Source: Tubiluchus corallicola (Eukaryota; Animalia; Priapulida). Taken from it: DNA of 64,000 nucleotides. The stretch lies in NCBI GenBank assembly GCA_030141605.1, contig JAQGDQ010000590.1:62001-126000 (forward strand), read 5' to 3'. The number at the start of each line of letters is the position of its first letter. Positions within the stretch are counted from its first letter, which is position 1. The notes below the pieces were generated by a model. The model was not told the origin of the DNA. It was given only the letters and a program-made list of their open reading frames with translations, and did no database searches. The translations under genes and the position numbers were made by a program. Below are positions 326 to 50,521 of this stretch, one piece after another.

Positions 326-410
326 CGAAGCACTAGCTGCCGAGATTGCGAGGCAGGATGTCGAAGCCACGTCACAGTTGGAGAACGAATTGTGGAGGGA
401 CCGCAATATG
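326..410 (+). CDS. EVC-like exon (EALAAEIARQDVEATSQLENELWRDRNM)
   Basis: ttttcag|c...aatatg|gtttgt; ends phase 0, matching the next exon. Confidence 0.75.
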
Positions 411-2994: not shown

Positions 2995-3026
<32 letters not shown>

Positions 3027-6000
3027 TTGATGATGATGATGATGACAATGGTCATGCTAATGTTGATGCTGTGCTTATGATGGATGGTGATGATACTGAT
3101 AATTCCATTGAAAATAACTCTAGTGACAATGACGATGATGATGATAATGATTTGGAGGAGGAGGAGGAGGCGATGTTCATCACAGTCTTTTGTGGGGTTT
3201 AGCGTAGCTGTTTATGGTATTATTGAGAAATGAAGATAGGATGTAATCGAAACAAATGTGGAGCCATCTGTTGAGACAGTTTCTTAATGGTCAGTAGAAA
3301 ATTAAACGTTGCAGGATTTGAAACGTTTCTGATAAATTTAGAGCGTTTACGGCGTTTTACATACCTTTTTGTATTAATCTTATTATATCATTTTCCCAGA
3401 ATGATAGTGTAAAAGACGAGGAAGAGCGTATCAGAAGAGATTTTGTGAAAGTCGCCGGTCTAAGTGAAAAAGAGGTACAGAGAGAATACCATTGTATTTC
3501 TGAAATAATAAAACATCAAAGAGCTCGGCAAAATGCTTAACAGTTGCTTTAATACTTGATGGAACACATTTAAGTTACTAAAGAACAACTAAAAATGCTT
3601 AGCATGTTGGGTTTATTTTACTACCGTCAATTAAACTTAGAAAAATATACACTTAAGTCACTGAATAACAATTAAGATATCTTTTTTTATCTCAATAAAT
3701 TTTGCTTAAAGGAAAGTACAAGTCACTTAGCATGTTGGTTTATTTTACTGCTGTCAATTAAACTTAGAAAAATATACACTTATGTCACTGAATAACAACT
3801 AAGATATCTTTTTTAACTCAATAAATTTTGCTTAAAGGAAAGTACAAGTCACTCAGCATGTTGATTTATTTTACTGCTGTCAATTAAACTTAGAAAAATA
3901 TATACTTAAGTCACTGAATAATAACTAAATATCTTTTTTAACTCAATAAATTTTGCTTAAAGGAAAGTACAAGTCACTCAGCATGTTGGTTTATTTTACT
4001 GCTGTCAATTAAACTTAGAAAAATATACACTTTAGTCACTGAATAACAATTAAGATATCTTTTTTTATCTCAATAAATTTTGCTTAAAGGAAAGTACAAG
4101 TCACTTAGCATGTTGGTTTATTTTACTGCTGTCAATTAAACTTGGAAAAATATACACTTAAGTCACTGAATAACAACTAAATGTCTTTTTTAACTCAATA
4201 AATTTTGCTTAAAGGAAAGTACAAGTCACTTAGCATGTTGGTTTATTTTACTGCTGTCAATTAAACTTGGAAAAATATACACTTAAGTCACTGAATAACA
4301 ACTAAATATCTTTTTTATCTCAATAAATTTTGCTTAAAGGAAAGTACAAGTCACTTAGCATGTTGGTTTATTTTACTGCTGTCAATTAAACTTAGAAAAA
4401 TATACACTTAAGTCACTGAATAACAATTAAGATATCTTTTTTATCTCAATAAATTTTGCTTAAAGGAAAGTACAAGTCGCTTAGTATGTTGGGTTTATTT
4501 TACTGCCATCAATTAAACTTAGAAAAATAGGACAAAGAAATTACAATAAAAAATCGATACTAAGAATATTCAGGCGCAGTGGTTGCCATCATTCACTTGA
4601 AAATATTTACGTAACTGACGGACTTCGTGACGTTTCGTGACCATCTTGCACGTTGCTATTTGTGTTATTTTTGAGGCGAAGGGACAAAAAATTTGTAATT
4701 TTCCTACACAGAACTTTGGCATGATTAGATTAAACAGTTTAAACTTTGCTTCACTGCAATATAAGTGCATTACACACTATTTGCTCATGGACACTGCTGT
4801 TTTTAACTTAATGAAAAGTGGGCTGCAACGCTGAAAAATGATTGACATTTCGTTGGTTATTTTTTGGCCAAAAAAGACCGCTAATTTGGCTGCTTTTTTG
4901 CTAGAATGTTAGCCATTCAGTAGGTGATTTAGTAGCCGAAAACTGTAGCCGATTAGGTAATTTCTAGACAGAAACTTGTCTAAATGGCTATTTCTGTGAG
5001 TGGCACAGCCAATTATAAATATTTAAGTGGAGTGGCGGATTTAGTGAGTAGGTCCAAGGGACCTGGGCCCACCCTTTCATAGTAGAAGTTACAGCATGCA
5101 AAATGAATTTTTTCTCTGGATTATAAGCTTTAGAACGTTTAGTGGTAGTTTTTAATGACTTATTTCGAGTAAAAAGTTCTGCATTAATGATTTTAGTGTA
5201 AAAACGTTTGTGCCCTTTAAGTGATAATTGAAATTTTTGGCAAAGATGTTGCTGTGTGCAATTATATGCTATACTAGGGTGTATACTAGTGTATTGGTGT
5301 GTAATTAAGAGTCAAAAGTTTGAGGTGACATAATGAGTTTTAAACTATTGAATTTGCTTGAGGAAATAGTAAGAAAAATGGTCTAAAATGCAGTAAAATG
5401 CATTGGTAAGCTCGGTTCCACAGACCCCCTAGCTCCTTTTTTGCTGGGCCCACCCTTCTTCTAAAGCCTGGATCCATTGCTGAAGTGTTCTAAAGAAAGA
5501 TCATCTTTTTTTACGGTATAAACTTTCTCAATGTTAGATGATAAGATACATTCCTTACTGTAATCGGTAAATTTTTTCTGCGGACACAATCTGATGCAAA
5601 TCCATTTTTTCTTAGGCCGAAGCGGCCATGGTCGAATTCCTACAAGATATGACAAGAGTCGATGCTCTGCTTGCCGAGAGATATGCACACGAATCGCAGG
5701 TATGTCATGACCGTCGTGCGAGTAATTCTGTTTCGTTTAGACGACTGCATTTATGGTTTCAGCTTACTAGCAGGGATGTTACCGAAACTGAATTTACAAA
5801 CCGAAACCGAAATTTTTGAAACATAGGAAACCGATACGGAAACGAAACCGAACTGAAACATTTTTGTAAAACCAGCTACTATTAAAACCGATAAGAAATT
5901 TAAATAAGTAAACATATTTTGTTTTTTGTTTATTTGCTTTTATTTGCTGTGATATATTATTTGTCGCGGTATTTTCGCTGTTTCGCGGGTTTTTGCGGTA

Positions 6001-8745
6001 CTCTGTCTGAAGCATTTTTGGACATGTGTAGTACGTATTGTACAGTAATGTATGGATTTGATGACTTTTGCATAAAAAATCACGAAATGTATGAAAATGT
6101 AGTAAAAGTATTAATTCTAACATTAAAAGAATATTATAGATCATAAAAAAACCATTTACAGTAAATAGTGTATTTATTCGGCAGATGAATACACACCAAA
6201 AACGTTAGCATCCGACTGTCGCGTGTGCATAGTTTTCATCTGTGGTGTTGTGCACGCTATTTGTAAAATTTTCGTTAGAAATTTTCATTTAAAACATTTT
6301 AATGAACATTTAAGTAAAGTTTTTTTTAAAGGTACATGTACAGTATGGGAAAAGTTATTAAGGGAATGGGAAAGGGTTATGTATAAGAGTGTGGGGAGGG
6401 TTAGTAAAGACTTAAAATAATGTATAACTACTAAAATAAGTATACCGTCCCTACTTTGCGGAAATTCACTTATCGCGGGTGGGCCTGGAACGGAACATCC
6501 GCGATAAGTGAGGGAACACTGTAAAACTATGATCCATAATGCTGCCGTACTAAACAATCGTCTGATTCACAGAAAATACAGCACCAGCTCTCTCAGCGAC
6601 TCCTGGCAGCCGAACTAGCAAGTCAGCGGAGAGCTTACCAGAACGAGGAGATTCAAGCAAACGTCGTCGCCCGTAGAGAAGCCTTGAACGAGACGGCCAA
6701 AAACAACTACAAATTGAAACTTTACGCCGACGAACTCATGGCTGATTATGAAAAAACCGTGTTGAAACTGCAGGAAAAGAGCGAAGCAGGTCTGTAATTT
6801 ATCATGGTTATCTCGTTGTAACCCTATAAGGTGGTTCATTTTGCTGTGATGCCAGTCTGGTTTTCGTACCTGTATTGCAGGTGCACAATTTATCACAGTT
6901 TTTGTGTCGTTGTTGGGTTAGTTGCTTGCAAAGTAACTCTACAAAGTGCTTCGTTTCACTGTGATGCTGGTCTGATTTTCGTTCATGTAATACAAAGCAT
7001 TGCCGTTAATTCAATGTGAGGCAAACAAGACACACTGAATTTTCACAAAAATTGGATTCTATGGCAACCATAAATAATATGGATCCCTTGGCAACCATAA
7101 ATAATTTGGATTTTATGACAACCATGAATGCATATCTAGACTACGTAGAACGTTCGTGCATTATTGTTATCATTTCAGAAAGCAAAAACTTTAGGTTGTT
7201 CACACATTATTGATCATCCGGGCATGTTTTTGGCATTTCACAAATGTTTGCCTAAAATGTTTTTCTTGTTGCTATTGCTTTGTGGCAGGGTGCAGGTGGT
7301 GTCGTGGGGTGTATTGTATTTTTTTGCTATTGTGACATCGCAGTTGACCACTTTTGCAGAAAAATTGTTGAATGACTTTAAGGAACCAACTCAAAAACAT
7401 CATCTGAAACATAGCATGTTAATAAGTTGCAAATATGCGCAAGTAAAACTTGCAATGTGTGCAACAAGCTTCGCATTCTGGACTAATTTTTTACACAGTC
7501 TGTCATTCTGTAAGTTAGGACCTAGTGCTGGACGGCTGGACTTAGTCAATGTAGACGGCTGCGCTAGGAACACAACCTAGTTTATTATCAAGGATAATTT
7601 TCTACGATGAGTCACTGGATTAGACGAGGTGTGTTCATATGTGTGTATATCGTCCACTTCGCTGTAAGTACTTACTGACAATACCGCAGATGAAACTGCC
7701 GAATATGAATGATGGATCTTGTGATCGACCACCCATTCACCGCCGCCCATTCGCTGAGCAGGTCTAGCTACCATGTGGTCAGCCATCCATTCACTGAACG
7801 AACATAGCTACCATGTGGTCAGCCACCCATTCACTGAACGAGCATAGCTATTATGTGGTCAGCCACCCATTCACTGAACGAGCATAGCTACCATGTGGTC
7901 AGCCACCCATTCACTGAACGAGCATAGCTACCATGTGGTCAGCCACCCATTCACTGAACGAGCATAGCTACCATGTGGTCAGCCACCCATTCACTGAACT
8001 GGCATAGCTACCATGTGGTCAGCGGCCCATTCACTGAGTGGGCCTAGTGACCATGGTCAGCCACCCATTCACAGAGTGGGCCTAGCTTTGCTTAAAGGAA
8101 AGGCCATGTGTTCTGAGAAGTTAGGCTTATTTCAGTGTTTGCAAAAAAACATTAGATGGATTTAGTAAAAAAGGTTTCAGGTTCAGTTCCAGATTTACTT
8201 CTGATTCTTTAATTTTGCTTTTTATCATTTTTAAGCCCCAGTTAAAATTGCATCATTGTAGTGAGTTTCACAGAGAAGCAGTTATGAGAAATACATAGTT
8301 GTAGGACAATCATTTGACACATTAATTTTTTACTTTAATTTGTCTGTGCAACCGGTGGGCATTTGGGGTCTGGATTCTGCCATTTGGATGGTTCAAATGT
8401 CGTCTAACAGTTTGTGTTTTGGACAGGATGGCTTAAACAACAAGCGATGCTAGTTGAACGCTTGCAGGAGAAGAGAGCGGCAGAACTTGCAGAGGTAGAG
8501 AAAGCAATGGCAACCGAGAGGCAGGGTTTCATAGCTAGGACGGAAAAAATGGTACAAACGACGGACATGGAGAAGGTATAGCAGTGCTGTAAGCTTTACT
8601 GAACTGTAGGTGAGCAGGTCGGTGAGTGACGAGAGATGGAGAGATGGACAGGAAGAGGGAAAGATGGAGAGTGATTCGACAAGTGGTGGAGAGAGGGGGA
8701 GTGAGAGAGGGAGAGAGAGAGTGTGAGAGAGAGAGAGAGAGAGAA

Positions 8746-8817
<72 letters not shown>

Positions 8818-9121
8818 GAGAGAGAGAAAGCGAGCGAGAGTGACAAAAAGAGAAAGAGAGGGACAGAGAAAGAGACATAGTGAGAAGGGAGAGGTAGAAC
8901 GGAGAGAGAGAGAGAGAGAGAGACAGAGAGAGAGGGGGAGGGAGGGAGGTAGGGAGAGAGAGAAAGGGGAGGGCAAGAGAGGGAGAAAGAGAGAGGGGGA
9001 CAGAGAGCGCGAAAAAGAGAGAGAGAGACAGTGAGAGAAGGGAAAGAGAGAAAAGGGAGAGGGAGAGAGAGAGAAGGAAGAGAGATATGGAGGGAGGGAG
9101 AGAGAAAGAGAGGGAGAGAGA

Positions 9122-9164
<43 letters not shown>

Positions 9165-12100
9165 TTCTTTTTGTAAGCCAAAAATTTTCTGTGTTTTCAG
9201 TCCTATAGAGATTACATTGAAAAACAGAAACGACAGATGCACGATGTGCTGGATGAAATTGACATATCCGAAACAAATGAATTTGACAAGCTACTAAAGG
9301 TAAAGTGTAAAGGCATGTTTGCACTTGTAAATATCAATCCAGCAAAAATATATTAACTGTTAACAAACATTGGTGCTAAACTATCTGTGATTGTAGGAGC
9401 TTGTTATTTTGCCTCTTAAGAAAGATCAGACACGAGCTTGCTTTTCTCCGGGGCTGCTTTTTTATGAAACTGCAAACTTGTCATGCTAGCTAGTTCTTCT
9501 TCCATCCATCTGCCTGTTCACATGACAATATGCTCACAATTAATGCAATGAGCTAGTTTTTTCTGGACATTAAAATTCAGAGGGACAATAAGTTACTCAA
9601 TGAGTTACTTTTTTCAGGACATTAAAGTTCAGTGGGACAAGGAGTTACTCACAATTAATGCAATGAGTTGTTTTTTTCATTCAGAGGGACAAGGAGTTAC
9701 TCACAATTAATGCAATGAGTTGTTTTTTTCATTCAGAGGGACAAGGAGTTACTCACAATTAATGCAATGAGTTATTTTTTTCAGGACATTAAAATTCAGA
9801 GGGACAAGGAGTTACTCACAATTAATGCAATGAGTTGTTTTTTTCATTCAGAGGGACAAGGAGTTACTCACAATTAATGCAATGAGTTATTTTTTTCAGG
9901 ACATTAAAATTCAGAGGGACAAGGAGTTACTCACAATTAATGCAGTGAGTAACTTTTTTCAGGACGTTAAAATTCAGAGGGACAAGGAGTTACTCACAAT
10001 TAATGCAATGAGTTGTTTTTTTCAGGACGTTAAAATTCAGAGGGACAAGGAGTTACTCACAATTAATGCAATGAGTTACTTTTTCCAGGACGTTAAAATT
10101 CAGAGGGACAAGGAGTTACAGACCGCCGACGAAGCCTTCATCAACAAGCTACAGGATCATATGTCTTTATCGGCTGGTGATGTCACGCAACTATTGCAAG
10201 CTCACCTCGCTCACATGAGAAGTTTCACAAGTATGTGATTGTGTAAACACCATTTTGTTGAAAAGTGATTTCTAAATTGCCAAATACCTTGATCACTGTT
10301 TACTTTGAAGTTCTGAATGTTACATAAAATTATTTTTGTTTATATTTCACTTTACGAGATCTCTGTTCCAACGATAATCCTGGTACATGAGTTGGACTTC
10401 TGTCTTATAAGTTTGAGAAACTCCAGTTTTTATTCTTAAGTGATAGAAACGTTGTATTGATGAATCTTCGCATATTGATAGATCTTCGCGATTTGATAGA
10501 TCTTCGCGTATTGATAGATCTTCGGGTATTGATAGATCTTCGATAGATCTTCGCGATTTGATAGATCTTCGCGAATTGATAGATCTTTGCATATTGATAG
10601 ATATCCGAGTATTGATAGATCTTTGCGTATTGATAGATCTTCGCGTATTGATAGATCTTCACGAATTGATAGATCTTTGCATATTGATAGATCTTCGAGT
10701 ATTGATAGATCTTCACGTATTGATAGATCTTCACGTATTGATAGATCTTCACGTATTGATAGATCTTCGCGAATTGATAAATCTTTGCATATTGATAGAT
10801 CTTCGAGTATTGATAGATCTTCGCGAATTGATAAATCTTTGCGTATTGATAAATCTTCGCATATTGATAGATCTTCGTGTATTGATAAATTTTCCTGTAT
10901 TGATAAATCTTCGCGTATTTATAAATCTTCGCATATTGATAAATCTTCGCGTATTGATAGATCATCGCATATTCATCTTCGTGTATTGATAAATCTTCGC
11001 GTATTGATAAATCTTCATGTATTGATAAATCTTCATGCATTGATAGATCTTCGTATATTGATAAATCTTCGTGTATTGATAAATCTTCGTGTATTGGCAA
11101 ATCTTTGGGTATTGATAAATCTTCACGTATTGATCTTCGTATATTGATAAATCTTCATGTATTGATAAATTCTGTATTGTCTTACAGGAGCTAAAGAACT
11201 GGAGAAGCAACAGTATGCAGCCATCTTGCAGGACCGACTGTCTGACAGAGAAAAGGTGAGAAATCTGCCAACAGACGGCAGCACCAGAATGATGTTGCAA
11301 ACCCACAATCAATTAAATGTGTGCTTGCATAGCAAAATCGTCCATAAGTCAGTAGTGTTTTCTAGTTATCAACAAACCCTGAATCTCCATTTCATGAGGA
11401 TCATTTTGATACAAAGTTCATCGCTCTATGTTATTTCCAAGCTGAGATAATCCACGTTGAAGTCGAGGTGCAAAAAACGGCATCCCTAGCCGAAAGTTAG
11501 CCATAGAAAAACATAGCCACGTCCTTGCCGAAACAACAATGGTGTGATAATTATTGCATTCAGTGTTTTAAATAAAAAAATATGCTTTCATATGACAGTG
11601 CCAGGTAAGTGTGTGAATGTATGAAGTAAACTATGAAAAGTAGCAAAGGTTTCCAATTTAAAAACATGCGCGAGTGGTTAGACGAAAACTCTGGTAAAAT
11701 TAAGAACCTTACTGCAAAGTTAAAGAACGCTATGAATTCGAAAATTTCTTGCCAATTAATACTGTAACCCTCAATGCTAAAATTGCTTTCACAAAACTAC
11801 GTTTTAGTTCCCAATCACTCGCAATAGAAACAGGTAGACATCATAAACATAACAAAATACCAGCCAGCGAAAGATACAGTACACAATGCGACCCAAACAA
11901 ACAAGAAATAGAAGACAAAACACATTTGCACTTGCACTGTAGCAGATATGAACAACTAAGAAACACCCCTAATACGGAAATTAGCTCTATATATCCAAAC
12001 TTTACCAACTTATTATATGATGACAAACTAAAAGTACTATTGGGCTCAAATGATTCAGAAATTCTCCAAATTCCTTGTAATTTTGTTTTAAAATGTTTTA

Positions 12101-15100
12101 GTTCCTGAATGTAATTATTGTAAATTGAAAATAAACGAACTATGTATATATAACTAGCATCACTTATGTAAACTAAATACTACATGTGTATGCAACTATC
12201 TTGAATTTGCATTTATGTATATTCATGTTGTACCATTGGGTTTATACATCAAATTTTGATATTGCGTCTTTGGTTTAAATTGTTGAGTTTGACTTGGGTA
12301 ATTGTATTCTTGATAACGTGGTATAGGTTTTTTTGTAGGGCTGTATATGTGTGAAATTGTATCTTTATAATCGGTGAGTACATTGTATGATTTGTAATTG
12401 TGATTACCCAATAAATATATTATATATTATTTGATGCAGAGATGGGAGGAGGAGTATGCGGCCACGGAAGCTGAGCAGACTTCACTAACAGAGTACCAAG
12501 ATGCGGCCGTCGTGAAAGTCATAGACACTCAAATGGGTGTAGACAAGGAGTAAGTTAAAAAATAATTTTGTTTGTTAACAAACTTTTTAGATAAGTTCTG
12601 TCTATAGTCTTATTGCATATAGAGCTTGCGTTAGCAGTAACGCTGCATAAAACTTGTACACTCAAATGGGTGTAGACGAGGAGTAACTTAAAAGGCAATT
12701 TTGTTTGTTAACAAACTTTTTTGGATGAGTTCTGTCTGCAGTCTTATTGCTTCTAGAGCTTGCGTTAGCAGTAACGCTGTATAAAACTTGTAAATTCAAG
12801 CTGCCGCCATGACATAAAGTTTGAGGAAATAATCCTAGCATATGTAGCACACTCTTCACTATTCAAGGAAAAGTTTAAGTTAATTTATCATGTCAGTAAG
12901 ATCAATAATGTGTGTTTTTTGGTGAGTCAGTGGTGCACACTGGGATGGCGATTTAGAATTTTCTTTTCTAGTTACATATAGGGTTGCCAGATTAGAAAAT
13001 TAGAAATACGGGACACTCTTAAAATCTCTCTCTATATTACTGTATTTTTACATGTAAATTTATACATGTCTACAAACCGAGAATGAGTACTAAACATGAG
13101 TTAATGATTTTAATGGGTTATGAGGAAAACAAAAGTGAAATTATTTGAAAAGTATTTAATACCGACAAGTATTATAATACAGAGAAATATTATTATCATT
13201 TAATAGTCACATTTGGGTTACTTTGGCTAAGAGAACCTGAGTACTTATAAAGTTACGACTAAGAACCATACGAAGTTGTAAAAATAAAATTTTTATTACG
13301 AATTATGAAAATGAACTAAAAATGGGACGTTTGGGTAACCCCGAGAGGTCAGTGCAGGACAAGGGACAAAATAATTAGCAAATATGGGACATGTCTTGTA
13401 TATTGTGTCATATTGTGAATTTTTTAATAACTCTTTAGCGATTTTTGGACAGTAATGATCATGTTATGTGATCAAAAGTGTGTATTGTGAATTTGTTAAT
13501 AACTCTTTAGAGATTTTTGGACAGTAATTATCATGTTATGTGATCAAAAGTGTTTATCGTGAATTGGTAAAGAACTCATTAGCAATGTTATATGATCAAA
13601 AGTCCTTTTTTGTAGTGAACTATGGACTGAACCAAAAAATCATGTCCGACTATCTCTTAATCAGTCAATAAACATATATATACATGTAATATAAGGTTTG
13701 TATGTATATATATAATGGACGTTCGGCTAGCCTGATTGCATAAGTCTGGTAAGCGTAATGCAAGGCAATTAAACTTTGCGTGGAAAGTTTTTTGAGATGA
13801 GCTTTAAATGTCCCATTTTTTAAACATGTTCATGTTCATTTTCAGAGCTCGTACGCAGATTCTGACGGAACATCAGCACAACATGCAAATGCTGAACAAT
13901 AAGTTAATGATGTCCAAGCACAGACAACACAAAATGTGAGTAACGATTTAGTTTAGCAGAACTCGACTCGCAGAAACTCAACACAAAGATGCAGTGATGT
14001 TCTATTTGCATGATAACTGAAATCACTGGAACCAGTTGGCTACATACATGAAGTCCTCGCTTAACGATGCTAGTTGTACTACAATCAATGTCTGCCATAT
14101 TCCAACAAAATATTGTAGTGTTTTATACGTCATTTCTATTAAAAATAAATAAAAAGGCCATTTTACAAATTTGAATTTATTTCTGCAGTTCTAGACTTTA
14201 GCACAAAGTAGTTCTAGACGTTACTAAACACAAAACGCATTAAATAAACCTAATTTGGTAATTTTACTAATTTATACCACATTCTATCAAATTTATAAGA
14301 CTGTTATTCATTAAACTAAAATGTTTAAAGTGATCAGTTCATAATGATTCAAAATAATGCAAAACGATGTATTTACTTACATCGTATGTCTCCATAAAGC
14401 AAATCTAGTATTTACCAATATATCTGACAAATTATGCCACTATCATACTGTGAAAAACTACTTTTAAAGAAGCCTGTTAACGTCTACCAACTAACTCACT
14501 TGCCCAGGTAGAAACAGATCTGCACAGGTGAGTGCCCGTGGTCACGTGACCAAAGAGATACTTGGTGAAATTCCCTACACTAGTGCTTTCCTGCATCATG
14601 TGATGTTAAGCAAAATGTTGTTAAACGAAACCAAAACTTTTGTAAAAAAAAATTGAGACACGTTGATATAAAAGTCCAATATATTTAGCATTTGTTACCA
14701 AAAATTTACATTTGACCGAATTTTTGCATCATTCTACTTTAAAGCATCGTAATATAGTTTAAACTATGCCGACTTACAGACGGTTTTGGTTTGCAAGCAC
14801 TCAAATATATTAAATAGATAAATGGACTTTTATATTCTGGCATCAAATTATCAAAAAAAACGTTCAAAAAATACTAAAAATCTAATTTTTTAACCCTGTA
14901 CCCACTTTCCTGTCTTGAAACTAGTACTGCAATTGTACAAAACTTGTATTTTCAAACTGTGGTTGTACCTCATGGAAGCAGCCATTTTGCTTCCAGTTTT
15001 TTATGTTGCCAAACCCTGATCCTCTTCAGGAAGAGCCATCTACTGAATTTAAACATTTAAACTTCAATTTGCTCTTGCAAAATCCATAGCAACCACACTT

Positions 15101-18100
15101 TCGTACGGTTGCTAAGTGTTTTGTAGAGACACGGCAAATAAGAATGGCCGACTTTAATAGACATTTTCTCAAGATTATGTTTTTTAGTGCATAACCTGCA
15201 CCTCAACGTGGATTGACTCAGCTTAGAAATATCATAGAGTGATGAAGATACATATCATCACAGTTTGTGGATCTTATAAAGTTCGATTTTTGCATCATTT
15301 TTTTTTCTAGTTTGGTCCGGAAGCTGAATACGAAGAGAGCTCAACTGGCCGCCCAACGACAGAACCGCCATGGTAAACGCCAAACTTTATCTAGTCAAGA
15401 ATTACTGAAAATGGATAAATCATACGTGAGTTCTAAATTTACGCTTATATATACTTTACCTTGAATTATAAATTTGTTATTGAAATGATTAAAGGAAAAT
15501 TGAATGCAATATTAAACTATAACTGAACATAATCTGTTCTGTAAAAAATTGAAAGAGAACAGGCTGTTTTTCAAGAACAGCTTACGTGAAAGAATTATTA
15601 CGGCGGAAATCTCTTTTTGTATTCTCACGTTTAGTTCTTCGCTGATACGTACATTTTGACGCTCATTTAAACAGACAGGCACTAATGCCTGCATCTCGGG
15701 AATGTGTTGATCGAAAACAGATGCTCTACCTCTTAGTTCAGAGCTGTTCATTTGTGATGTAATACATGAGTTTGACAGCTGATGCATGAGCACAGCGAAA
15801 TTTCCATTTTTATCTTGAGGTTTGCAGAGTTTTTGTGAATCACACTGAATATCTTACAGTAGCACTGTACTTCAATTTTCGTTTTCGCAAACTCGTGCAA
15901 CACGCTCACGGAATATTTTTGCTATTGAAAATTATGTTAGTTTGCGATGTCATCAATAGCTGCGCTCGCCCGCCGTGATTTAATAATCTATTATTTGATG
16001 ATCAAAAACACTTTTGCAGTATTAATGGTGTTAAAATATATACTTTCATCATACTTGAAAATGGTGCAGTATATGAAAAATCATCCTGTCTTCCTTTAAT
16101 GTACAAAGCTGTTCAATTCCTTTAATTTTATTTTCAAACACTTAGCTATTTGTTACTGTATCAATTTCTTTACTGGTCTGCCTATTCATTACCTATTTAC
16201 CTTTGTAAATACATAATTAGTTCATAATTTACTGTATCAATTTCTTTACTGATATGCTTACTCATTTCCTATTTGGCTTTTGTAAATACATAATTAGTGC
16301 AAAATTTGCTCTATCAATTTTTTCTCTACAGGTCTGCTTATCCATTATCTTTTTGGCTTTTTGTAAATACATAATTAGTACATAATAGGCTGTGCCTATA
16401 TAAACTGGTTGTATGTTTGTAAATTTACCTCTGATGATGATGACAGCAGTAGTCTCTCAAAACGTTTGGCATGATTTTAACTTTAGCTTTTTAATGTAAA
16501 AGTTTTTATAAAGTTGTGTAGTTTTTAACGATAAATAACCTGTGTGCTGTACAGTTGTACCTATGTGTCCATTGCAGGGTGAAATTGAGATGCAGGAACG
16601 GACACTTCAGCTTGAGTATGAACAAGCCTTAGCCGAACTGAGACGTAAAATGGCCACGGAGACGGATATATTGCTGAGGCAGCAAGACCAGCAACTGGCG
16701 GCTGTCATAGGCCGACAGCAGGTACGCGCTGCACTGTTATTTCAACAGCAACATGTTGCTCAATATGTTGCAGTTCTTATTATGAGTCATTTTATAATAG
16801 CAATAGCAACACGTTGCTCAATACATTGCAACTCATATTATGAGTCATTTTACAATAAAATGGCAACATGTTGATCTATATGTTGCAACTGATATTGTGA
16901 GCCATTTTATAATAACAGCAGCAACATGTCACTCAATATGTTGCAGCTCATATTATGAGTCATTTTATAATAACAACTGCAACATGTTGTACAACTGCAA
17001 CGTTGTACGAAGCAAGTGTGCAACACGGTCCATGTTGCGACAGCTTGTACGTTGCTTTTATCAATTTGTTGCTAAACTGCCTTCTACTGAAACATGTTGC
17101 TTCTGTTAATAGGTCAGTTTAAATAAGCTGTTGGATGAGCAGCGAATGAAACAGTGGCGACTCATAGTTAAAATTACTGGGGCTGCTGCTTCAGAAAATT
17201 TTTATCCATTGTTTTAATACTATGTAAAACAATTCAAACATATGTAATTTCAATGTTGTAATTCGTAATTGTAATTTTAAGCTAACAAACGTAGGAAAAT
17301 TTATACACAAATTCGATGAAATCGTAAACAAAAATGTTTTTGCTTACGAGTAACTGAAATTGCCGCAGTTCAAGAATATACCGGTAAACATGTTTTAAGT
17401 GTGTGACAACTGACAACAAACTGTGTGAGCCACAGTACTTTGTCTACCTACCAGCAGACACTAGCAGTGCCGCATGTGCACAACAGCCAAACTCCACATT
17501 GCTGGAGTGCACTGTGCTGGGCTGTGAAGCAAACAGTGCTACACTCACGTGCTTTGATTCCATACATGTTTAAAGAAAGAACTAAAGAAAAAAGACTTAT
17601 TATTTGAGTGAAAATAGGGGGCGCTGCAGTTCCACAGTACCTATACACGAGCCGCCAATGTTGCCACATTTTCCTTACTCAACTGCACTTTGTTGCAAGA
17701 ATCGTACGTTCCGCACGTACGGGCTCACAGTGGTACAAAACAACGTTGTCATTTATAACTAATTTTTCTGTTTTAGGTAGGAAGAGCCAGAAGAAATGCA
17801 GCCATACAGAGACAAGATAAAACAATACAGCAGTTAGAGGTTAGTATATTCATCGATTCATTTCATTGCCGCTGTACCACTGATTTAGTGGAAATATTCA
17901 GCTTTATACCTCATTCATTTGTCTAAAGTGCTCTAGATTTTGTTAATTTGATAATAGATGGCAGAGCCTGCCACATTAAAATGCTGTTTTGTGATATGTG
18001 TATGCTGGCAAATTAAAACCGTCTGGAAGTCGGCATAGTAACAACACCATTATCAAGCGTCAAAGTACAATGAGTCAAATTTTATCATTGTACGATATCA

Positions 18101-20816
18101 ATTTTATGTTTTTGATAAAAGAAAGGCTAAATATGTTAGTTTTATATTCTAGCATCGAAACGCTTGCAAAAGGTTCTAAAATTACTAAAAATTAAATTTT
18201 TATTATCCCTTCCTCACGTCTCTATCTAAAAATTAGTATTGAAAACTCAAAGTGTTTTCAAACTTTCATAGTACCTCAAGGAAGCCGCCGTTTCTCTTGC
18301 GATTTTTTCCATCATCAAGTCCAAGTCCTCATCTAGAGCAGCCATCTACTGGATTTAATTGCAACTACAACAGCAGCCATAGCAACCACTATTCCATACA
18401 GTTGCTATGGTGGTTCTTTAGAAACGTGATAAAAACAATGGCAAACTTTGACAGAGATTTTCCCAAGATTGTTTTTCGCTACAATTGAGAAAAACTTGTA
18501 TTTTGAAACTCCGGTTGTAACTCCTGGAAGCAGTCATTCTGCTCCCGGTTTTTTCTGTTGCCAAGCACAGATTTTCATCAGGAGAGACATCTACTGGATT
18601 TAAAGATAACTTCAATGTGTTTTTTTAAGTCTGTAGCAACCAACATTTGTGCAGTTGCTAAGTGTTTTGTAGAAACGCGACAAAAAACAATGACTGACTT
18701 TAACAGTGATTTTCTCAAGGTTATGTTTTTCAGTGCGTAGCCTGCACCTCAACTTCAACGTGGATTATCTCAGCTTAGAAATAACTCAGAGCAATGAACT
18801 TGGTATCAAAATAATCCTCATGAGATAGAGGTTCAGAGATTCAAAGTTTAGAGATTCAGAGTATGTGAATGACTAGAAAAGTTTAGATTCAGCATAAGTG
18901 AATAACTAGGAAAGCTTAAATTCAGGATACGTGAATGACTAGGAAAGCGTAACTGCCGACACCTGGATGGTTTTGGTATGCAATCACACATATCTACTAC
19001 GTAGATCATTTTTTTGTATTCAGGCTCAGATTGCAGACAGAGTTGTACAAGCGGACAGCAATGCCTACACAACCGAACAGATACTACATCAGCACATGAA
19101 AGAGGTCAGTCAGTTGAATCAGCACCTCCAACAGAATCGCCAGCATCAGATGAACGTTCTACAAGAAAAAATCGAGGCCAAGAAGCTGTTGAAAGAAAGG
19201 TATTGAAAATTCCCCGGTTTTCGCGAAACACGACATAATCCTTTACACCACATCTCGGTTTGCCGGACCTCGCTTTTACGGATATGGGAAGAATTGGACA
19301 AAATCTGGACCATTCAAAAGTCCTGCATAATACGGACACGGGTTGTTGTTCCGCGAGCTGATCGTTACTTGGCGGGCCGTCTTTTTATTTACATCATTAC
19401 ATCAGTGTAACAGCACGTGTATATCTCTATGTATAAAAATATAGAATCATTCATGCGGAGTTATTTGAGTCAATTGCTGATATTTTTTACTTACTTTTGC
19501 ATAGGAGCTCATACTTAGACGTTTTTGAGACAATTAGGTAATTGATTCTACATTACCATGAGTCTAAACAGGGTGCCTACTGTATTAGTTTAGTATCGGT
19601 AAATACGGACAATCAGCTTTTACGGACCGACGTCTCCGCCGCTTTTGTCCGGGAAACCGAGATGTGAGCGTACTTAGATAAAGCTCGAAAAATTCATTTT
19701 GAAATTTAATATTACCTACATGTTGTCTTATTGCACACAGAGCTTGTATCAGCAGTAATGCTGTAAGAAACTTGTAAACGAACTCGCGCGATGACTGTTA
19801 TACATAGCCATTATAATGTCAAGTTGTTTGAAACAAGTTTAGATAACATTGTAAAAAGATATTCGGAGCTTTTGTGACTTACACTTCACTAACTAAGCAA
19901 AAGTAAAAATTACTTTATCTTATCACTACATTTAAAAATATGTTTTTTGGTGAATCAGAAGTGCACACTGGGAAGGTAAGTCAGTGTCATTTTGCCAGTT
20001 GCCCATTTTAAATATCATTTCTAGTTACACATAAGTCTTTCAAGCAGGTAAGCGCAATGCAAAGTAATATAACCTTGCCTGGAAAGTTTTTTTTTTGGAA
20101 GCATCCTGTAAAAGTGCCTTTTCTTTCCATTTTAAGTAAAAAAAATGAGTTGTAGTCTGTGCTTTTCACAATTTGATGGTTGCAAGTCACTCACACTGTA
20201 TTGTTAGGGCTTTTTCACACTGCAACACCAAGACCCTGCTCACATTACAACTGCCATGGCTTATTCACGCTAAGAGAGTCATAATCTGTTCACACCAAGC
20301 AGTTACACGTCCATACGTAACATTTGAAACTTTTTTACAAAGTGACAGTGAAATGTTTGATAACAGGATTCACATTTGAAACTACAATCTTTTCACACTA
20401 GACAGTTTATATGTGTGTGTGTGTGTGTGTGGGCGCGTGTGCGTCTGCGTGCGTGCGTGTGTGTGCTCGCGCGGGCATGCGTGTGTGTGCACGCGTGGGC
20501 GTGCATGCATGTGTGTGCGCTCGCGCGGGCATGCGTGTGTGTATCTCTTTGACACTGGAGACAATTACAACCATTAGAACATGTTAAAACTTACAGCCTA
20601 TTTTGCGTGAACTTTTAAAGCCACAGCAAGGCTGTACCCCGTTTATTTGTATATATGGCTGTTATTATTAACAGTAACTTGTTTTGGCAGGAATGCAGAA
20701 TCTGTCCACAATGTACCAGTCCATGAAACTAAACACAGAGGGTAAGTACCTTTAAGCAATAACACATTTCTGTAAAGCAATACAAACATCATCTACTATA
20801 TATTAATTTATATGTA

Positions 20817-20901
<85 letters not shown>

Positions 20902-22001
20902 ATGCATGTATGAATGTATGTATGTATGTATGCATGTGTGTGTGCATGTATGTATGTATGCATGCGTGTGTGTGTGCATGTATGTATGTATGTATGTATG
21001 CATGTATGTATGTATGTTACTTTTTTTGTTAAGCTGCTGCTGGCTGTTGTAATGTAGTGGCATAATATTAACCTATTACATACATTTAGATTTGAGAAGA
21101 ATGTCTGTGCATTATTGATCATTGGTGGATGGGCCTAACAGCATTTGTCGTAGCACACAGTTTAAGTCTTTCATGGTTTAGCTGGGCTGCTGCGTTGTCG
21201 ATGTTAGTGTTGGAGATGCTATTGTCATCATCCTCGTCGTCATCATCATCATCATCATCATCATCCTCACCCAGATTGACGTCGTTGTCGTCATCAGCAC
21301 CATCATCAGTATCATCATCACTGTCCTTATGTGATGTGTTGTGTTTAGATTAATGTAATAAGGCATAGTTAATGTGATGGATGTGGTGTGGTTTGATAGG
21401 TATTGCATCATATTGCGGTATTGGTATGGGTGTGGCATAATGTGGATGTGGGTGTTGGGGTGGGTAGTGCAGTGGGGCGGTATGGTGTAGGTGATGTGTT
21501 GCAGAACGGTGTGTGGTGGGTGGTGTTGGTGTAGTGTGGTGGGTGTGGTGTGGTGTGTTACAGGTGTGATAGAAATATAGTAAAATATTTTTACTACCTT
21601 CTTAGGTGTAACTTTCTCAGTTATTAGACTTTCTTTTCCCAGATTCTGTTGATGAAAATAACCCAAATGTAACAATTAAGTTATAATAATAATATTTCTC
21701 TGTTGCCCATATTTAATAATTATTTTCAAATGTTTTCAATTATACAGAATTTTTTTTAGCTTGAATTAAATAACTTTCAAATAATTTTACTTTTGTTTTC
21801 CTCATAACCCATTAAAATCCTCACTTGATGTTTCTAACTCATGTCTCTATTTTTATATAGAAAAAATTATATTGATCTATATGTGGAGGCACGTATAAAT
21901 TTATGTATGTAGAATTACATATATTTATATATATATATATATGATATGATATATATTATATTATACTATACTACACTACACTATACGATACTATACTATA
22001 T

Positions 22002-22039
<38 letters not shown>

Positions 22040-25000
22040 TTATTTATTTATTAAGAATGTCTCATATTTCTAATTTTCTAATCTGCCAACCCTCTAATAA
22101 GGGCTGTTGCAATTTGGACTTACATACTATTACAATTGCAATTGTAATGGGGTATATGCTTGTGCTCAAATTAAGGCATTTTTTATGGCCAATTCTTGCC
22201 TGCCTTGTCAAACCTGCTCCCGCACTCCTATACAATACAGTTGTGAGGATGTTTACATAGTAAGCGTGTAATATCCTAGCTAGCAGCTAGCAAGCAGCAC
22301 TTTACTGCTCGGCTGCTGTGACCTTGAGTCGTGCGCCATTATCCTGCTTTACAGCATGGCGTGTGCGCGTGAACATGTTTCCTAGTCAACTGCTGACTTA
22401 TACGTACAAAAAGCAATTTTTTAAAGCGTTCTAAAGCACAAATTGTTCAGTTGAAAATATACTAGTGTTTGCGGCCACCATGTTGCAGCCGCCGTCAGCT
22501 CAATTTGCTCAGATGTCTTTTGGTCCTGTGGTGAAAGTAGAATTGCGCGTGCAGTGTACGAACCTTCTCAGCAAGGACGTGTCCAGCAAAAGTGATCCAA
22601 TGTTAGTGCTGGAAACGAAGGATGACCAACAGAAATGGTTTGAACTCGGCAGGACAGAAAACATGAAAAACGAGTTGAACCCGCAGTTTACGAAAACGTT
22701 CGAACTTGATTACTTCTTCGAGGAGGTGCAAAAATTGCGGTTCTCTGTCTATGACGTTGACAACGAGACAGAGAGTTTACGCGATGACGACTTTCTTGGT
22801 CGTATGAAAACGACTTTAGGTGCCATTGTATCTAGAACACCGTATGAGGAACAATTGTTGAGTAAGAAAGGGAGTCCGATTGAGGACAGTAAGATTAAGG
22901 TGAGTGCAGAAGAAATACGAGGTCCAAACGAATTCCTGCTCATGCAATGGAGAGGAAAGCAGCTGGATAAGAAAGACTTTCTCAACAAGAGCGATCCCTT
23001 CCTGGAATTTTTGAGGCTGTCCGCTTCCGGAAACTACGAGGTGGTCCATCGCACGGAGGTGATTCGGAATACGCTCAATCCTAATTGGACGCCGGCAAAG
23101 ATTTCTCTGAGAGCATTAGCAACGGGCGACAACGACTCAGAGATTCTGGTGCGATGTTTTGACGAAGATGATGACGGAAGTCACGACCTGATTGGTCAGT
23201 TTACCACGTCGCCGAGTGAACTTCGTGATGTTGCAGCCAATAACGCATCAAAAGAGTTTCAATGCATCAATCCGAAGAAGCAGGAGAAAAAGAAATACAA
23301 AAATTCCGGGATTATAGAACTTGTCTCCTGTAAGTTGGGAAGGGAACATACATTCCTGGATTACATATTTGGAGGACTACAACTCAACTTTACGGTCGGC
23401 TTTGATTTTACGGCATCAAACGGAAATCCGCTCGATCCCAATTCACTCCACTATATAAATCCACATCAACCAAATGAATACATGCTGGCCACCATGGCAG
23501 TGGGCAATGTGGTGCAAGATTATGACGCGGATAAAATGTTTCCGGTTCTTGGCTTCGGAGCCAGACTGCCTCCCAGTTGGCAACTCTCTCATGAGTTTGC
23601 GGTCAATTTTAATCCCACAAACCCGTTTTGCGCAGGCGTACAGGGCATCTTAGATGCGTACCGAAGCTGCGTAGCCCAAGTGCAGCTATACGGACCTACC
23701 AATGTGGCTCCTATTATTAACCACGTTGCTAATTTTGCATCTCAAGCATCAGTTCAAGGATATGCATCACATTATTACATCCTGTTACTACTAACAGATG
23801 GCGCTATAACTGATATGGTTGAAACTACGTGTGCCATTGTTAACGCTTCTCGTTTGCCGATGTCCATTATCATTGTGGGCGTGGGCCCTGCTGATTTTAC
23901 CGCCATGAATTTTTTGGATTCGGACGATGGGCTGCTGAGAACACCCTACGGACAGACGGCTCTGAGAGACATTGTCCAATTTGTTCCGTTCAGGAAGTTT
24001 GCTTCGACCAGCAAGGAGAGGATGGCAAAAGAGGTGCTTGCGGAGGTGCCGAGACAAGTTACTGATTACTTTACGAAACTCGGCATTCAACCGTTGAATC
24101 AGCACCCGCCACCTAGCTGATAAGTGAATAAGCAGCTGCTAACAAGTTTGTGTTAAAATTGCAGTATACATAATTGCATATTCTGTTTTGTTAAAGGAAA
24201 GAACAAGTCACTCAGTATGTTGGGTTTATTTTACTGTTATTATTTAAACTGTTTGTGGTGTGCTAAAGGAAAGAACAAGTCACTCAGTATGTTGGGTTCA
24301 TTTTACTTTTATCACTTAAACTGTTTGTGGTGTGCTAAAGGAAAAGACAAGTCACTCAGCATGTTGGGTTTATTTTACTGTTATCACTTAAACTGTTTGT
24401 GGTGTGCTAAAGGAAAGAACAAGTCACTCAGCATGTTGGGTTTATTTTACTGTTATCACTTCAACTGTTTGTGGTGTGCTAAAGGAAAGGACAAGTCACT
24501 TAGCTTGTTGGGTTTATTTTACTGTTATCACTTCAACTGTTTGTGGTGTGCGAAAGGAAAGAACAAGTCACTCAGTACATTGGGTTAATTTTATTGTTGC
24601 CACTTAAACTTTGAAAAATACAAAAAAGAAATATACAAGGCTCTGTCTAGAAAGCATAAATCTAAAATCTACCCGCTCTGAATGGAAATTTTCCGACCTG
24701 GTGGTTGCCGCCATTCGTTTGACAATCACGGCGTAACTTGGAGACTTCGTGACTTTTAGTAAGCTCATCGTGGCTTTCCATAAACACGTGCTGTTTAAAC
24801 TGATTCAAACTTCTGCAACTTACCTAATATTTGCACAAAAATGTTGCAAAATCAGTTTTTGTAAAAGCTTTACTATATTATACTTTTGACGAAGACTGAC
24901 AGTGCGCTACTTTTCTTCAAGACGTCATTGGTAGAAAAATGGGCATTCAAAATGGAAGCGCCCAAGCATGAAGTGATCGCGACTTTAAATTGATTTTACT

Positions 25001-28000
25001 AATTACACGAGGCGCTTATGCAGTTTTATCGTAAAATCTTTCTAATTTTTTTGCAAACTTAGAAATAATCCTAACTTTCCAGAAGGTTTGACTTTTCCTT
25101 TAACTAATTAGTACTTTCATCTTCGTTATCAAATCTGTACAGCTTTACTGATGTTTTATTGTTTCTTGCCCATTTATTATAAATTTGGACTTCAATAACA
25201 AAAACTGTAGTTGTCTGGAAATTATTAGATAGGCGTGTTAGAGATTTAAAGGAGACATGATGACTTTTCTTATACCACCTCATTTTCAAGTCCGATAAAA
25301 AGTATACATTTTAACACAATTAGTACTGCAAAAGCGTTTCTGATAATTAAGTAATAGATTAAAAACTTAATTAACAATGAGCAAGCCCAACTACTGATGA
25401 CATCACAAACTAACGTAATTTTCAACAACAGAAATATTCCATGAACGTGTTGCACGTGTTTATGAAAGAGAAAATTGAAGTACAGTGTTACTGTAAGATA
25501 CTCAGTGTGTTGTACGAAAACTAGGCAAGTTTTACGATAAAAATTCAAATTTAAAATTTACTGCTGTACTCGTGCATGAGCTGTTGACTGTGTGCAGTTT
25601 GTCACAAACTAACACAACTAAACTTAGAGGTACAGCACCTGTTTTTTGTTCAATGCGTTTCCGAGATGCAGACGCTAGTGCCCGTCTAACTAGCTAAAGG
25701 CGATATGCGGGTAACAGTCAAGAACTAGTGGCGCGAACGTGAAATTGTGTTTGCGTGGTAATAATTCTTTCCGGTAGGTCATTCTTGAAAAAACAGCATG
25801 TTTCCTTTAAATATTTAAAAGAGTAGATTGTTTTGACCTACAGTTTAACATTGGGTCTGGTTTTGCTTTAACATTGTACCAGTATTTACCATTTATATAC
25901 GAATTATATTAGATTTACATGGATTCTTGTTCTAATGTTATTATGTGGATTAGCAGCTAATTTCCTGCCTTACTAGGTGGAATAATCATATAGAGGTAAT
26001 CTCGAAACATGCGTGCCGTATATTTGAAACATATATTATACTGTCTATTTAAAATAAAATATTTAACAATACTTTATTTGAATTTAATTTAAAACGCTTA
26101 AGAAATTACTCACCATGTCGATAAGGAAAGTAAGAACAAAGCTCAAACTTTGTGTTGTTTGTGGTGTTGGTGTAGTGTGGTAGGCTTGAATGATGCATTG
26201 TGGGTGGTATGGTGGTTTTGATTTGGTGTGGATGGTGTGGTGTGGTGAATGTCCTATGGATGGTGTGGTGTAGTGGATGTGGTGAGTGCTGTGGATGGTG
26301 TGTTGTGGTGGATGTGCTGTGGACAGTTTGGTGTAGTGGATGTGGTGAGTGTGCTGTGGTGGATGTACTGTGGATGGTGTGGTGAGTGTGCTGTGGATGG
26401 TGTGGTGGTGCAATGTGGGTAGTATGGTGTCATGGTGCAATGTGGGTAGTATGGTGTCGTGGTGCAATGTGGTTAGTACGGTGTGGTGGTGCAATGTGAG
26501 TAGTACAGTATCGTGGTGCAATATGGGTAGTATGGTGTGGTGGTGCGATGTTGGTAGTACGGTATGGTGGTGCAATGTGAGTAATACGGTATCGTGATGC
26601 AATGTGAGTAGTGTGGTGCAATGCCTGGGCTCCCACTTTATTACATTTAAAAAATATTATGCATATTTTATATCATTCCTAACTGATACCTACAATTTGC
26701 ATACACTGGTCTACTTTGTAAAGTGTGTTTTAAATCAAGTTGAAACCATTACTCCTAGTGGAGGCGCCACCTACCAAGATGGCATCCAGTGGATCAATTG
26801 TACGATCAGTTCTCTGTCACGCTACCCTCGTTTTTCTGGACCCATGTTGGTACCATACTTATACTTATATAGCAGGTATCGACATGGTTTCCTTTAAACG
26901 CTCTCTGTACAGAAGCCATATGTCGTACAAAGACATGCCATACATCGTTGGATTCGAAATAAAACGTGGAATATGATGCGTTGTGTCAAAGTCATGTGGC
27001 GAGTTTTGTTTACCTACTATACTGCAACGAATAGAATGTCCGGTCGAAAGTTTGACACACTGCTCAATGAAATCTGTCGAAATGTGTCTTGATTTAGCGT
27101 AAACTGACAATATTCTAGTAAATTCTTGCCAGTCAATGTTTTGGACAATTTTTGTTCAGCTACATTTACATGATCAGAAAATTTTAAGCATGGTCTCGAG
27201 TTCTTCATTATTTACGATGCAGGTCGGATGTAGCGGATGTTGAGCATTCCGAGTCGGAATCCGATTCTCTCTCTCGACAGATGATGGAGGAACTGCATCG
27301 TGAGATGATGCTGGACATGCAAGGTCAGAAACAGCAACTGGACATGAACATGGAACAACAGTTGAAAGAAGCTTTAATGGTAAGTCCTGCCACAACAGCC
27401 GATGTACAACTGCGCATAATTAATTGCTTGATACAACAAACAATAAGCCTTTTCACAGTTCAAGGTTAAGTGTACCAGACAACACATTTGTGTACACTTG
27501 ACGACGACTCGCAGCCCATGCTGTTGTAATAGTAACAGTTTTAACAACTAGCTAGAACCTTACCTATTTCATTTTTTCTTGTTCGCAAGTAAGATCCTGC
27601 TAGTAAATCACTCTACACAAAGATTAATGCGTAATTAAGTAGACTCCATGTAAAACAACAGATGTTATTGATCTGATGCAGCAGACGGCCTTGCTCTACC
27701 CACATGTCATGTGGGTGACACGCATAATTAAGTAAAATCCATGTAAAACAACTGACATTACTAAACTGAAGTGACAGACGGCTTTGCTTTACACACATCT
27801 CCTGTCACGGTTGTAGTTAAGACACACTGCCGGGGTCCACTTAACCTTTGACCTACAGCAACTACACATGCTTGCGAAAAGAGTTATTTATATCTGGCAT
27901 AGGGAAATATTTTAAGAAAAGGAAAGGTTGCTACCTATGCAAATGCTATTACAGACAACGGATGACTGTAACTTTTACCACATTGCCATCAGTTTTACAG

Positions 28001-50040: not shown

Positions 50041-50521
50041 TTCTTTTGTTAATGGAATATTCTGACCTCTCTGCTGATCGAGAACTTGTTTAAATAGCTG
50101 GTGTAACTACAGATGTTTGACGAACGAAATTTACTGAATTATTTTAGTTGTACATTCACCATGACTGACTCAACAACTGGTAGACAAAGTTAGCATGCCG
50201 CAATAGTTCACTGCATTTTCTTGCAGCGGTAAAGGTAGCAACGTTTGGAGGAAAAAAATAGCTTCCAGTGTGTTTAGCAGTTGCAAGAAAAAGCGTCTAA
50301 TGCAACAGCAATGCCTGCACGCATAATCTGATTTTTAAGTTGCTTAATTTTGAAGTTGAATCGCCACAAAACGCATCACAACTGCAGCTGAAAGACAGAT
50401 GCACCCCCACGTCGCAATAGACTCTTCCACTTGTTTTTGCATAACGTAGGCTGGTTAGTGTTTCATCCAGGCAATATTTCCATTTTACTAAGTTCAACAA
50501 ATTCCGTTAATAAAGCTGATA

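What the first reader, a model, noticed from the sequence alone, without database searches (positions are those of the whole stretch)
20742..27222. Intact intronless copine nested on the same strand inside an intron of the EVC-like gene
Seen: the host exons flanking this 6.5-kb intron join in frame (phase 2 donor at 20742 to phase 2 acceptor at 27222). Between them lies a complete 546-aa copine ORF with a gccaccATG context, intact C2 aspartates and the vWA DFTASNG motif. Known: animal copines are normally multi-exon, and most nested genes are antisense to their host. Inference: this is a functional retrogene under purifying selection. It either has its own internal promoter (GC-richer patch 22260-22400) or borrows host transcription. 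Its poly(A) site would compete with completion of the host transcript and remove the last three EVC-like exons. That could couple a Ca2+/phospholipid-binding protein to a ciliary membrane scaffold. No in-frame EVC-copine fusion is evident: splicing 20741 to the acceptor at 22450 gives an immediate TGA.
Basis: partly seen in the sequence, partly recalled or inferred. Interest (0 to 1): 0.75.

Follow-up and report, generated by a model that had tools for sequence, protein, structure and literature searches.

The report
Intronless copine inside EVC gene intron
An intact, intron-free gene for a calcium-binding copine protein sits on the same strand inside an intron of the cilium gene EVC in an animal whose closest protein matches are from priapulid worms; it is likely an old mRNA-derived copy kept by selection, which is a known kind of gene nesting.

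Summary
Observation confirmed. A 546-codon intronless copine (22480-24120, +) lies in a 6,481-bp intron, the longest of 19, of a 20-exon stop-free gene model. The host is EVC. The model matches one Priapulus protein carrying Pfam EVC_N (48% over 782 columns), and the three exons after the copine match that protein's C-terminus on their own (E 3e-18). A DNA run holds a ~98% copy and a second, ~88% copine. That second copine is also intronless wherever covered, including across an intron site inferred from brachiopod and fish isoforms. It is therefore a sister copy, not an intron-bearing parent; no parent was found or could be sought. Differences lean synonymous (16 of 27 listed), with no indels in coding pieces. 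Expression, promoter, poly(A) site and the host junction remain untested by RNA. Nothing supports a functional EVC-copine link. One correction: a weak AAG acceptor at 22436 would give an in-frame fusion. The closest precedent is mouse H13/Mcts2. The scan has not noted this copine elsewhere, but noted the same layout for CEP290 in this genome (unchecked). Verdict: new member of a known kind.

The parts
22480..24120 (+). Intronless copine ORF (C2A-C2B-vWA, copine-3-like group), 546 aa
20742..27222 (+). EVC intron that holds the copine; 6,481 bp, longest of 19 modelled introns (median 1,184)
326..20741 (+). 17 upstream EVC exons (326-410, 2125-2277, 2567-2650, 3400-3474, 5616-5699, 6573-6789, 8427-8575, 9201-9299, 10089-10230, 11188-11255, 12440-12549, 13846-13935, 15311-15425, 16578-16721, 17777-17839, 19024-19199, 20691-20741); the gene's 5' end lies outside the window
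   Evidence: exon model by hand and script; homology to P0123
27223..31755 (+). Last three EVC exons (27223-27379, 28910-29000, 31565-31755), 145 aa
   Evidence: 46% identity to P0123 791-870, E 3e-18
22129..22479 (+). 5' flank, candidate promoter and 5' UTR; six upstream ATGs opening short ORFs; donor-like GT at 22260 and acceptor-like CAG ending 22354 (possible small UTR intron, untested)
   Evidence: (covered by ~97% X1 contigs)
22434..22436 (+). Weak AAG acceptor; the only AG upstream of the copine ATG (21000-22479) that would join host and copine in frame
   Evidence: 20 of 20 host acceptors are CAG or TAG
24191..25103 (.). Interspersed element with short terminal inverted repeats ending in TTAA, starting 70 nt after the copine stop; second copy at 30798-31482

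Best explanation
An intact, intronless copine lies on the same strand inside the longest intron of the EVC gene; it likely descends from an old reverse-transcribed copine-3 mRNA, is likely kept by purifying selection, and would be read from its own promoter as a separate short mRNA. Shown: the nesting, the intact frame, and a second intronless copine about 88% identical in a related DNA run. Inferred: (1) intron loss came from retroposition and predates the split of the two copies; (2) the copy in EVC is either the original insertion or a later duplicate, which cannot be told here; (3) the protein works as an ordinary Ca2+-dependent phospholipid-binding copine; (4) EVC is made normally by splicing the whole 6.5 kb out. 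When the copine is active, EVC elongation would be dampened at most as a side effect, as at H13/Mcts2. No functional partnership between the two proteins is needed.
For: Frame and domains. One host gene across the intron. Host is EVC: P0123 carries precomputed PF28139, named EVC_N, where its top three Atlas clusters (0.92-0.93, 199-203 shared features) are EVC_N/EVC_C and EVC2 is lower (0.75). Ancestral introns: isoform pairs of copine-3 in Lingula and three fishes differ from about residue 523-529 onward (4 of 5 pairs examined; the fifth, Chiloscyllium, differs throughout), which implies a shared coding intron. Both the window and X1's second copy (contig 23954-24107, no gap) run through that site. 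The host in the same genome has at least 19 introns, so the genome is not intron-poor. Selection: 16 of 27 listed differences to the second copy are synonymous, against 22-34% expected (p 0.007 at the higher figure). None of the 11 listed contig pieces over the coding region has a gap, while three indels fall in the 5' flank. The ~98% copy differs at no more than 16 of 915 coding sites, versus 16 of 415 for the contig over EVC exon 27223-27379 and its flanks (p 0.03). The tree puts it with Priapulus copine-3-like (88/90) on a longer branch (0.78 against 0.48).
Against: No RNA shows this copy expressed or shows its start or end. No intron-bearing parent was seen; the genome is not held, and contigs were laid at 80% likeness or more, so a more distant parent could not appear. 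No poly(A) tract or target-site duplication was found (longest shared flank word 7 nt). The synonymous excess is measured between two copies, so it may reflect past constraint or constraint on the other copy; only 40 of 181 differences were listed. The coding-versus-intron contrast is not significant if only the 7 listed intron differences are counted (p 0.31). The 5' flank is not CpG-island-like. Tree support is below the tool's star level, and only copine-1/3-type rows were included (24 of 121 sequences).
Confidence: 0.65

Rival explanations
1. Silent spare copy. The nested copine is a duplicate that is no longer expressed, or barely, and has not yet decayed; the other copy does the job.
For: A second copy exists. 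The branch is long, and 11 of 214 otherwise invariant columns have changed. A repeat element sits 70 nt after the stop, and no AATAAA occurs for 1.9 kb.
Against: 12% divergence from the second copy with no stop or frameshift in the window's frame. All invariant Asp residues are kept. The ~98% copy in X1 shows no indel over 915 coding bases.
Confidence: 0.13
2. Host-borrowing terminal exon. The copine has no promoter of its own; EVC transcripts splice from 20741 into the 5' flank. At 22354 or 22450 this would give a truncated EVC with copine as a second cistron. At 22436 it would give a membrane-anchored EVC-copine fusion.
For: Same strand. An in-frame AG at 22436 with a pyrimidine count of 10, inside the host range of 9-13. 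An acceptor-like CAG at 22354 with a count of 12. No TATA or CpG island. Chimeric retrogenes are common (PMC5470649 passages).
Against: The in-frame site is AAG, while 20 of 20 host acceptors are CAG or TAG, and another AG lies 10 nt upstream. The better acceptors give stops after 1 or 9 codons. The copine keeps its own strong ATG context and an N-terminus of normal length (alignment). The intron lies near EVC's 3' end, so a second cistron would follow a long ORF and translate poorly (general knowledge).
Confidence: 0.1
3. No retroposition. The lineage's copine-3 lost its introns in place and was then copied at DNA level, one copy landing in the EVC intron.
For: The two copies share sequence beyond the coding region at both ends (loose-end letters resemble window 22415-22450 and 24132-24160, compared by eye). 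No retro hallmarks. DNA duplication of intronless genes is a recognised confounder (PMC5470649 passage).
Against: Losing every intron of a multi-exon gene in an intron-rich genome normally needs a cDNA step anyway (general knowledge). Shared flanks are also expected from UTRs carried in an mRNA.
Confidence: 0.09
4. Assembly misjoin, or two separate genes either side of the copine.
For: The intron is repeat-rich, no laid contig spans it, and no RNA junction was seen.
Against: Exons on both sides are colinear with one Priapulus protein and phases join. A misjoin would have to insert the copine while keeping that order. Independent DNA confirms unique sequence at 22129-23394 and 27088-27502 at similar depth, 10-14.
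Confidence: 0.03

Closest known systems
Mouse H13/Mcts2 (PMC13309782; abstract and Introduction read)
   Same: Retroposed gene inside an intron of a multi-exon host; its transcription promotes intronic polyadenylation and early termination of the host. That the two genes share a strand is recalled, not seen in the text read.
   Different: There the interference is shown, driven by an imprinted CpG-island promoter, and the intron-bearing parent Mcts1 is known. Here expression is untested, no CpG island is seen, and the nearest relative is also intronless.
CPNE1/RBM12 (PMC2568002; abstract, outline and passages)
   Same: A copine sharing a locus and strand with an unrelated gene whose coding sequence lies in a single exon.
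   Different: Roles are reversed: there the single-coding-exon gene is RBM12 and the two share 5' exons and a promoter. Here the copine is the guest, near the host's 3' end, so a shared first exon is not possible.
Copine-3-like proteins (Priapulus caudatus XP_014671442, 58% identity)
   Same: C2A-C2B-vWA layout, conserved Asp residues, sister in the tree.
   Different: Brachiopod and fish copine-3 show alternative C-terminal isoforms, so they have coding introns. The Priapulus copine and EVC proteins are recorded on contigs of different length (186,676 and 338,364), so that copine is not on the EVC scaffold. Other Priapulus copines were not checked.
EVC (Ellis-van Creveld protein; PMC3052239 passages)
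   Same: The host's ortholog P0123 is 921 aa with one N-terminal hydrophobic segment and EVC_N.
   Different: No nested copine at EVC was found in print. The paper reports EVC lost in arthropods and nematodes, whereas it is present here and in Priapulus.

Membership tests
Copine | Two C2 domains followed by a vWA/Copine domain | tested here: met
   whole-length match to BON1 structures, E 7e-98
Copine | Conserved acidic residues in the C2 loops and the vWA motif | tested here: met
   26 invariant Asp kept, none lost; which ones bind Ca2+ is recalled, not tested
Copine | Ca2+-dependent phospholipid binding | not testable with these tools
   needs a bench assay
EVC (host) | Homology to the EVC_N/EVC_C family rather than EVC2 | tested here: met
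   indirect, through P0123: 48% identity, PF28139, Atlas clusters. The local Pfam copy gave no family for P0123 and none above cut-off for 16 single exons; the word-based search found no other homolog
EVC (host) | N-terminal signal anchor; head-to-head with EVC2 | not testable with these tools
   the 5' end is outside the window and no genome is held; the anchor is seen only in P0123
Nested gene | Whole gene inside one intron of a single host gene | tested here: met
   (by homology; junction not seen in RNA)
Retrogene | Lacks introns that homologs have | tested here: met
   no coding intron in 1,641 bp; one ancestral site inferred from isoform pairs; the full exon count of vertebrate copines is recalled
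Retrogene | Intron-bearing parent gene in the genome | tested here: inconclusive
   the only other copy seen at 80% likeness or more is intronless where covered; more distant parents could not be sought
Retrogene | Poly(A) remnant and target-site duplication | tested here: not met
   expected to erode in old copies, so weak
Retrogene | Purifying selection | tested here: met
   16 of 27 listed differences synonymous, no coding indels; partial list, not branch-specific
Retrogene | Transcription | tested here: inconclusive
   no RNA holder listed
H13/Mcts2-type interference locus | Nested promoter activity shifts the host to intronic termination | not testable with these tools
   no usable RNA for the host or this copy

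The most novel reading that the evidence does not exclude
EVC transcripts splice from 20741 to the AAG at 22436 and make a membrane-anchored EVC-C2-C2-vWA fusion, or end at the copine and drop EVC's last 145 residues. The nested copine would then act as a switch that gives a ciliary Hedgehog scaffold a calcium and lipid sensor, in an ecdysozoan lineage that kept EVC.
Probability: 0.06. Interest if true: 0.7.

Novelty: new member of a known kind. Interest (0 to 1): 0.3.

Why it matters
As it stands, this is a clean but ordinary example of a retro-derived gene nested in a host intron. An intronless nested copine was not found in print (search: one paper held all three terms, on CPNE1/RBM12). It would matter more if host interference or the fusion were shown outside mammals. 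It would also matter more if, together with the unchecked CEP290 note from the same genome, it marks a lineage where conserved genes are often replaced by intron-nested retrocopies. The side result, EVC in priapulid-like animals, would mean arthropods and nematodes lost it after the ecdysozoan ancestor.

Tried and rejected
No genome is held, so parent search and synteny were impossible. Expression: no RNA holder listed for 22060-24190; this blank is not evidence either way. Run X1 proved to be DNA: one contig covers exon 27223-27379 with both intron flanks unspliced, so it cannot test splicing. Run X2 (RNA is only a guess) holds five pieces of the ~88% copy at depth 33-60. It has no piece of the nested copy and no cover on the EVC exon or unique intron; holes in contig sets prove nothing. 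The 3' half of the ~98% copy is not covered in X1, also not evidence. Host identification failed by Pfam on 16 single exons, by Atlas on one exon and by word search on one exon. It succeeded with the HMMER search on exon 2125-2277, where 1 of 3 hits was real and the other two (P0122, P0124) gave no match to the host model. Alignment A1 of exon repeats was not used. CpG decay as the reason for the G/C-to-A/T skew was rejected: 6 of 22 listed sites are in CpG, against 23% expected. No inverted-repeat pair enclosing the copine is among the 25 longest of 105 shown. No complex or fold job was run, since no binding is claimed. Literature: 'copine + primary cilium + EVC2' gave 2 papers, listing only, neither showing an EVC-copine link in title or abstract start. 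In the EVC/Priapulus/Hedgehog/cilia search, 1 of 15 listed papers holds 'Priapulus', only as a species abbreviation. Searches gave nothing specific beyond PMC3052239 and PMC5470649. No supplements were read; the EVC tree in the supplement of PMC3052239 could bear on the distribution claim.
Full report
Observation. The window holds an uninterrupted ORF at 22480-24120 (+), 546 codons, in a GCGGCCACC-ATG context. Pfam gives two C2 stretches and a full Copine domain. The best full-length database hits are copine-3-like proteins at 55-59% identity, led by Priapulus caudatus. Of 214 columns invariant across five other animal copines it keeps 203, including all 26 invariant Asp. It is the only copine match in the window.

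The host. Splice-site scanning and reading by hand gave 19 exons between 2125 and 31755, joined by GT-AG introns, with a stop-free translation of 752 aa; a twentieth exon at 326-410 extends it to 780 aa. A HMMER search with exon 2125-2277 found one true relative among 3 hits, P0123, Priapulus XP_014666389 'trichohyalin-like'. The model aligns to it at 48% identity over 782 columns in one piece. The three exons after the copine match its residues 791-870 by themselves (46%, E 3e-18; 68 bits against at most 22.7 in 100 shuffles). The weakest part of the alignment is just around the copine intron (P0123 750-790), so the exact border exons rest on phase and splice signals. P0123 has one N-terminal hydrophobic segment and precomputed PF28139. 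The Atlas names that family EVC_N and returns EVC clusters at 0.92-0.93, with EVC2 at 0.75. The local Pfam copy gave it no family, and a word-based search found no further homolog. The host is therefore EVC, by way of one ortholog. The copine intron is 6,481 bp, the longest of 19 (median 1,184). Both proteins point to a priapulid or close relative; this placement is inference from best hits and a tree (88/90).

Related DNA. Two runs were listed. X1 is DNA: one contig covers exon 27223-27379 with both intron flanks (16 differences in 415, depth 13.6). Over the copine it holds a near copy (22129-22371 and 22362-23394, 18 differences in 1,033) and pieces of a second copy at 83-92% (22454-22564, 22608-23169, 23602-23747, 23742-23930, 23954-24107), all without gaps (13 of 17 laid records shown). 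The EVC exon shows one copy only, so the second copine is a paralog rather than a second species or allele (inference). Its loose ends resemble the window's own flanks, by eye, and none runs into an intron. Isoform pairs of copine-3 in Lingula and three fishes diverge from about residue 523-529 (4 of 5 pairs), which implies an old coding intron there. The window and the second copy both read through that site. So intron loss predates the duplication, and the second copy is a sister, not the parent. X2, possibly RNA, holds only the second copy; that shows its presence, and says nothing about the nested one.

Selection. Of 27 listed differences between the window and the second copy, 16 are synonymous, against 22% (all changes) to 34% (transitions) expected (p 3e-5 to 0.007). 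Only 40 of 181 differences were listed, and the test does not assign constraint to one branch. Three indels fall in the 5' flank and none in coding pieces. The near copy is less diverged in coding sequence (at most 16 of 915) than the EVC exon contig (16 of 415; p 0.03), but not significantly against the 7 listed intron differences alone (p 0.31). Of 8 listed near-copy coding differences, 5 are synonymous.

How it would be expressed. No RNA evidence exists here. The 5' flank is 46-52% GC over 22200-22399, without a TATA motif or CpG enrichment. It has six upstream ATGs with short ORFs and a possible small UTR intron (22260-22354). After the stop, an element with TTAA-ended inverted repeats begins at 24191; the first ATTAAA and AATAAA are at 25358 and 26053, with weaker variants from 24617. 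No poly(A) tract or target-site duplication is seen. EVC read-through into the intron stops at once, and splicing to 22354 or 22450 stops after 9 or 1 codons. That site is AAG, whereas 20 of 20 host acceptors are CAG or TAG, so I rate its use as unlikely. If EVC ended early it would lose 145 residues. In mouse, Evc 222-800 of 1005 still binds Evc2 (PMC3052239 passage), so such a form might keep that contact; this is extrapolation.

Mechanism. Most likely (0.65) an old retro-derived copine-3 lineage, later duplicated, with one copy living in the EVC intron under its own promoter and under purifying selection, while EVC splices it out. Rivals: silent spare copy (0.13), host-borrowing terminal exon or fusion (0.10), intron loss in place plus DNA duplication (0.09), misjoin (0.03).

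Comparison. It works like H13/Mcts2, where a retrogene in intron 4 drives intronic polyadenylation of the host (PMC13309782, abstract and Introduction), but interference is untested here. CPNE1/RBM12 is the mirror case (PMC2568002, abstract and passages). [quoted passage not shown] Orphan and chimeric retrogenes, and DNA copies of intronless genes, are all described (PMC5470649 passages). One search for copine + intronless + nested returned only the CPNE1/RBM12 paper. The scan's own notes hold nothing on this copine. They describe the same layout for CEP290 in this genome and for other genes in other animals; those notes are unchecked.

Verdict. Real and correctly described, with the host confirmed as EVC. 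It is a new member of a known kind, and the proposed functional coupling has no support. Interest 0.3.

Noticed in passing
window 326-31755 (+); P0123: EVC ortholog present in this animal and in Priapulus caudatus, where it is annotated 'trichohyalin-like'. PMC3052239 reports EVC lost in arthropods and nematodes, so the ecdysozoan ancestor likely still had it. Not found stated in print in the search.
   Followed up: partly
X1 and X2 contigs on window 22454-24131: A second copine about 88% identical, intronless where covered, present in both runs; location unknown.
   Followed up: partly
window 22480-24120 versus X1: Differences are skewed: window C/G to run T/A 68, reverse 24. Not CpG-driven. 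Copine GC3 0.50 matches host exons 0.52. Unexplained.
   Followed up: partly
window 24191-25103, 30798-31482, 3598-4529: Family of elements with short TTAA-ended terminal inverted repeats; the left end is tandemly amplified (72-bp and 125-bp units). A second inverted-repeat element lies at about 25238-25818.
   Followed up: partly
window 27462-27870: Very high-copy repeat: summed depth up to 44,632 in X1 against 13.6 for single-copy DNA.
   Followed up: no
window 48763-50106 (-): Another single-exon ORF, BTB-BACK, 447 aa stop to stop. Decayed partial copies appear just downstream, at about 46600-46830 and 48150-48620 (seen by eye).
   Followed up: no
window 33533-34465 (-): Spondin-like exon (Spond_N part and TSP1), tail to tail with EVC.
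   Followed up: no
window 9628-10119 and 12525-12799: Tandem repeats that copy an EVC exon border: a 63-bp unit gives in-frame alternative acceptors at 9963, 10026 and 10089; a 134-bp unit repeats an exon end with its donor.
   Followed up: no
window 11704-12108 (+): 134-aa frame inside an EVC intron resembling the C-terminal end of a LINE reverse transcriptase (recalled resemblance, not tested).
   Followed up: no
window 50522-51235 (-): 237-aa cysteine-rich frame with no Pfam match.
   Followed up: no
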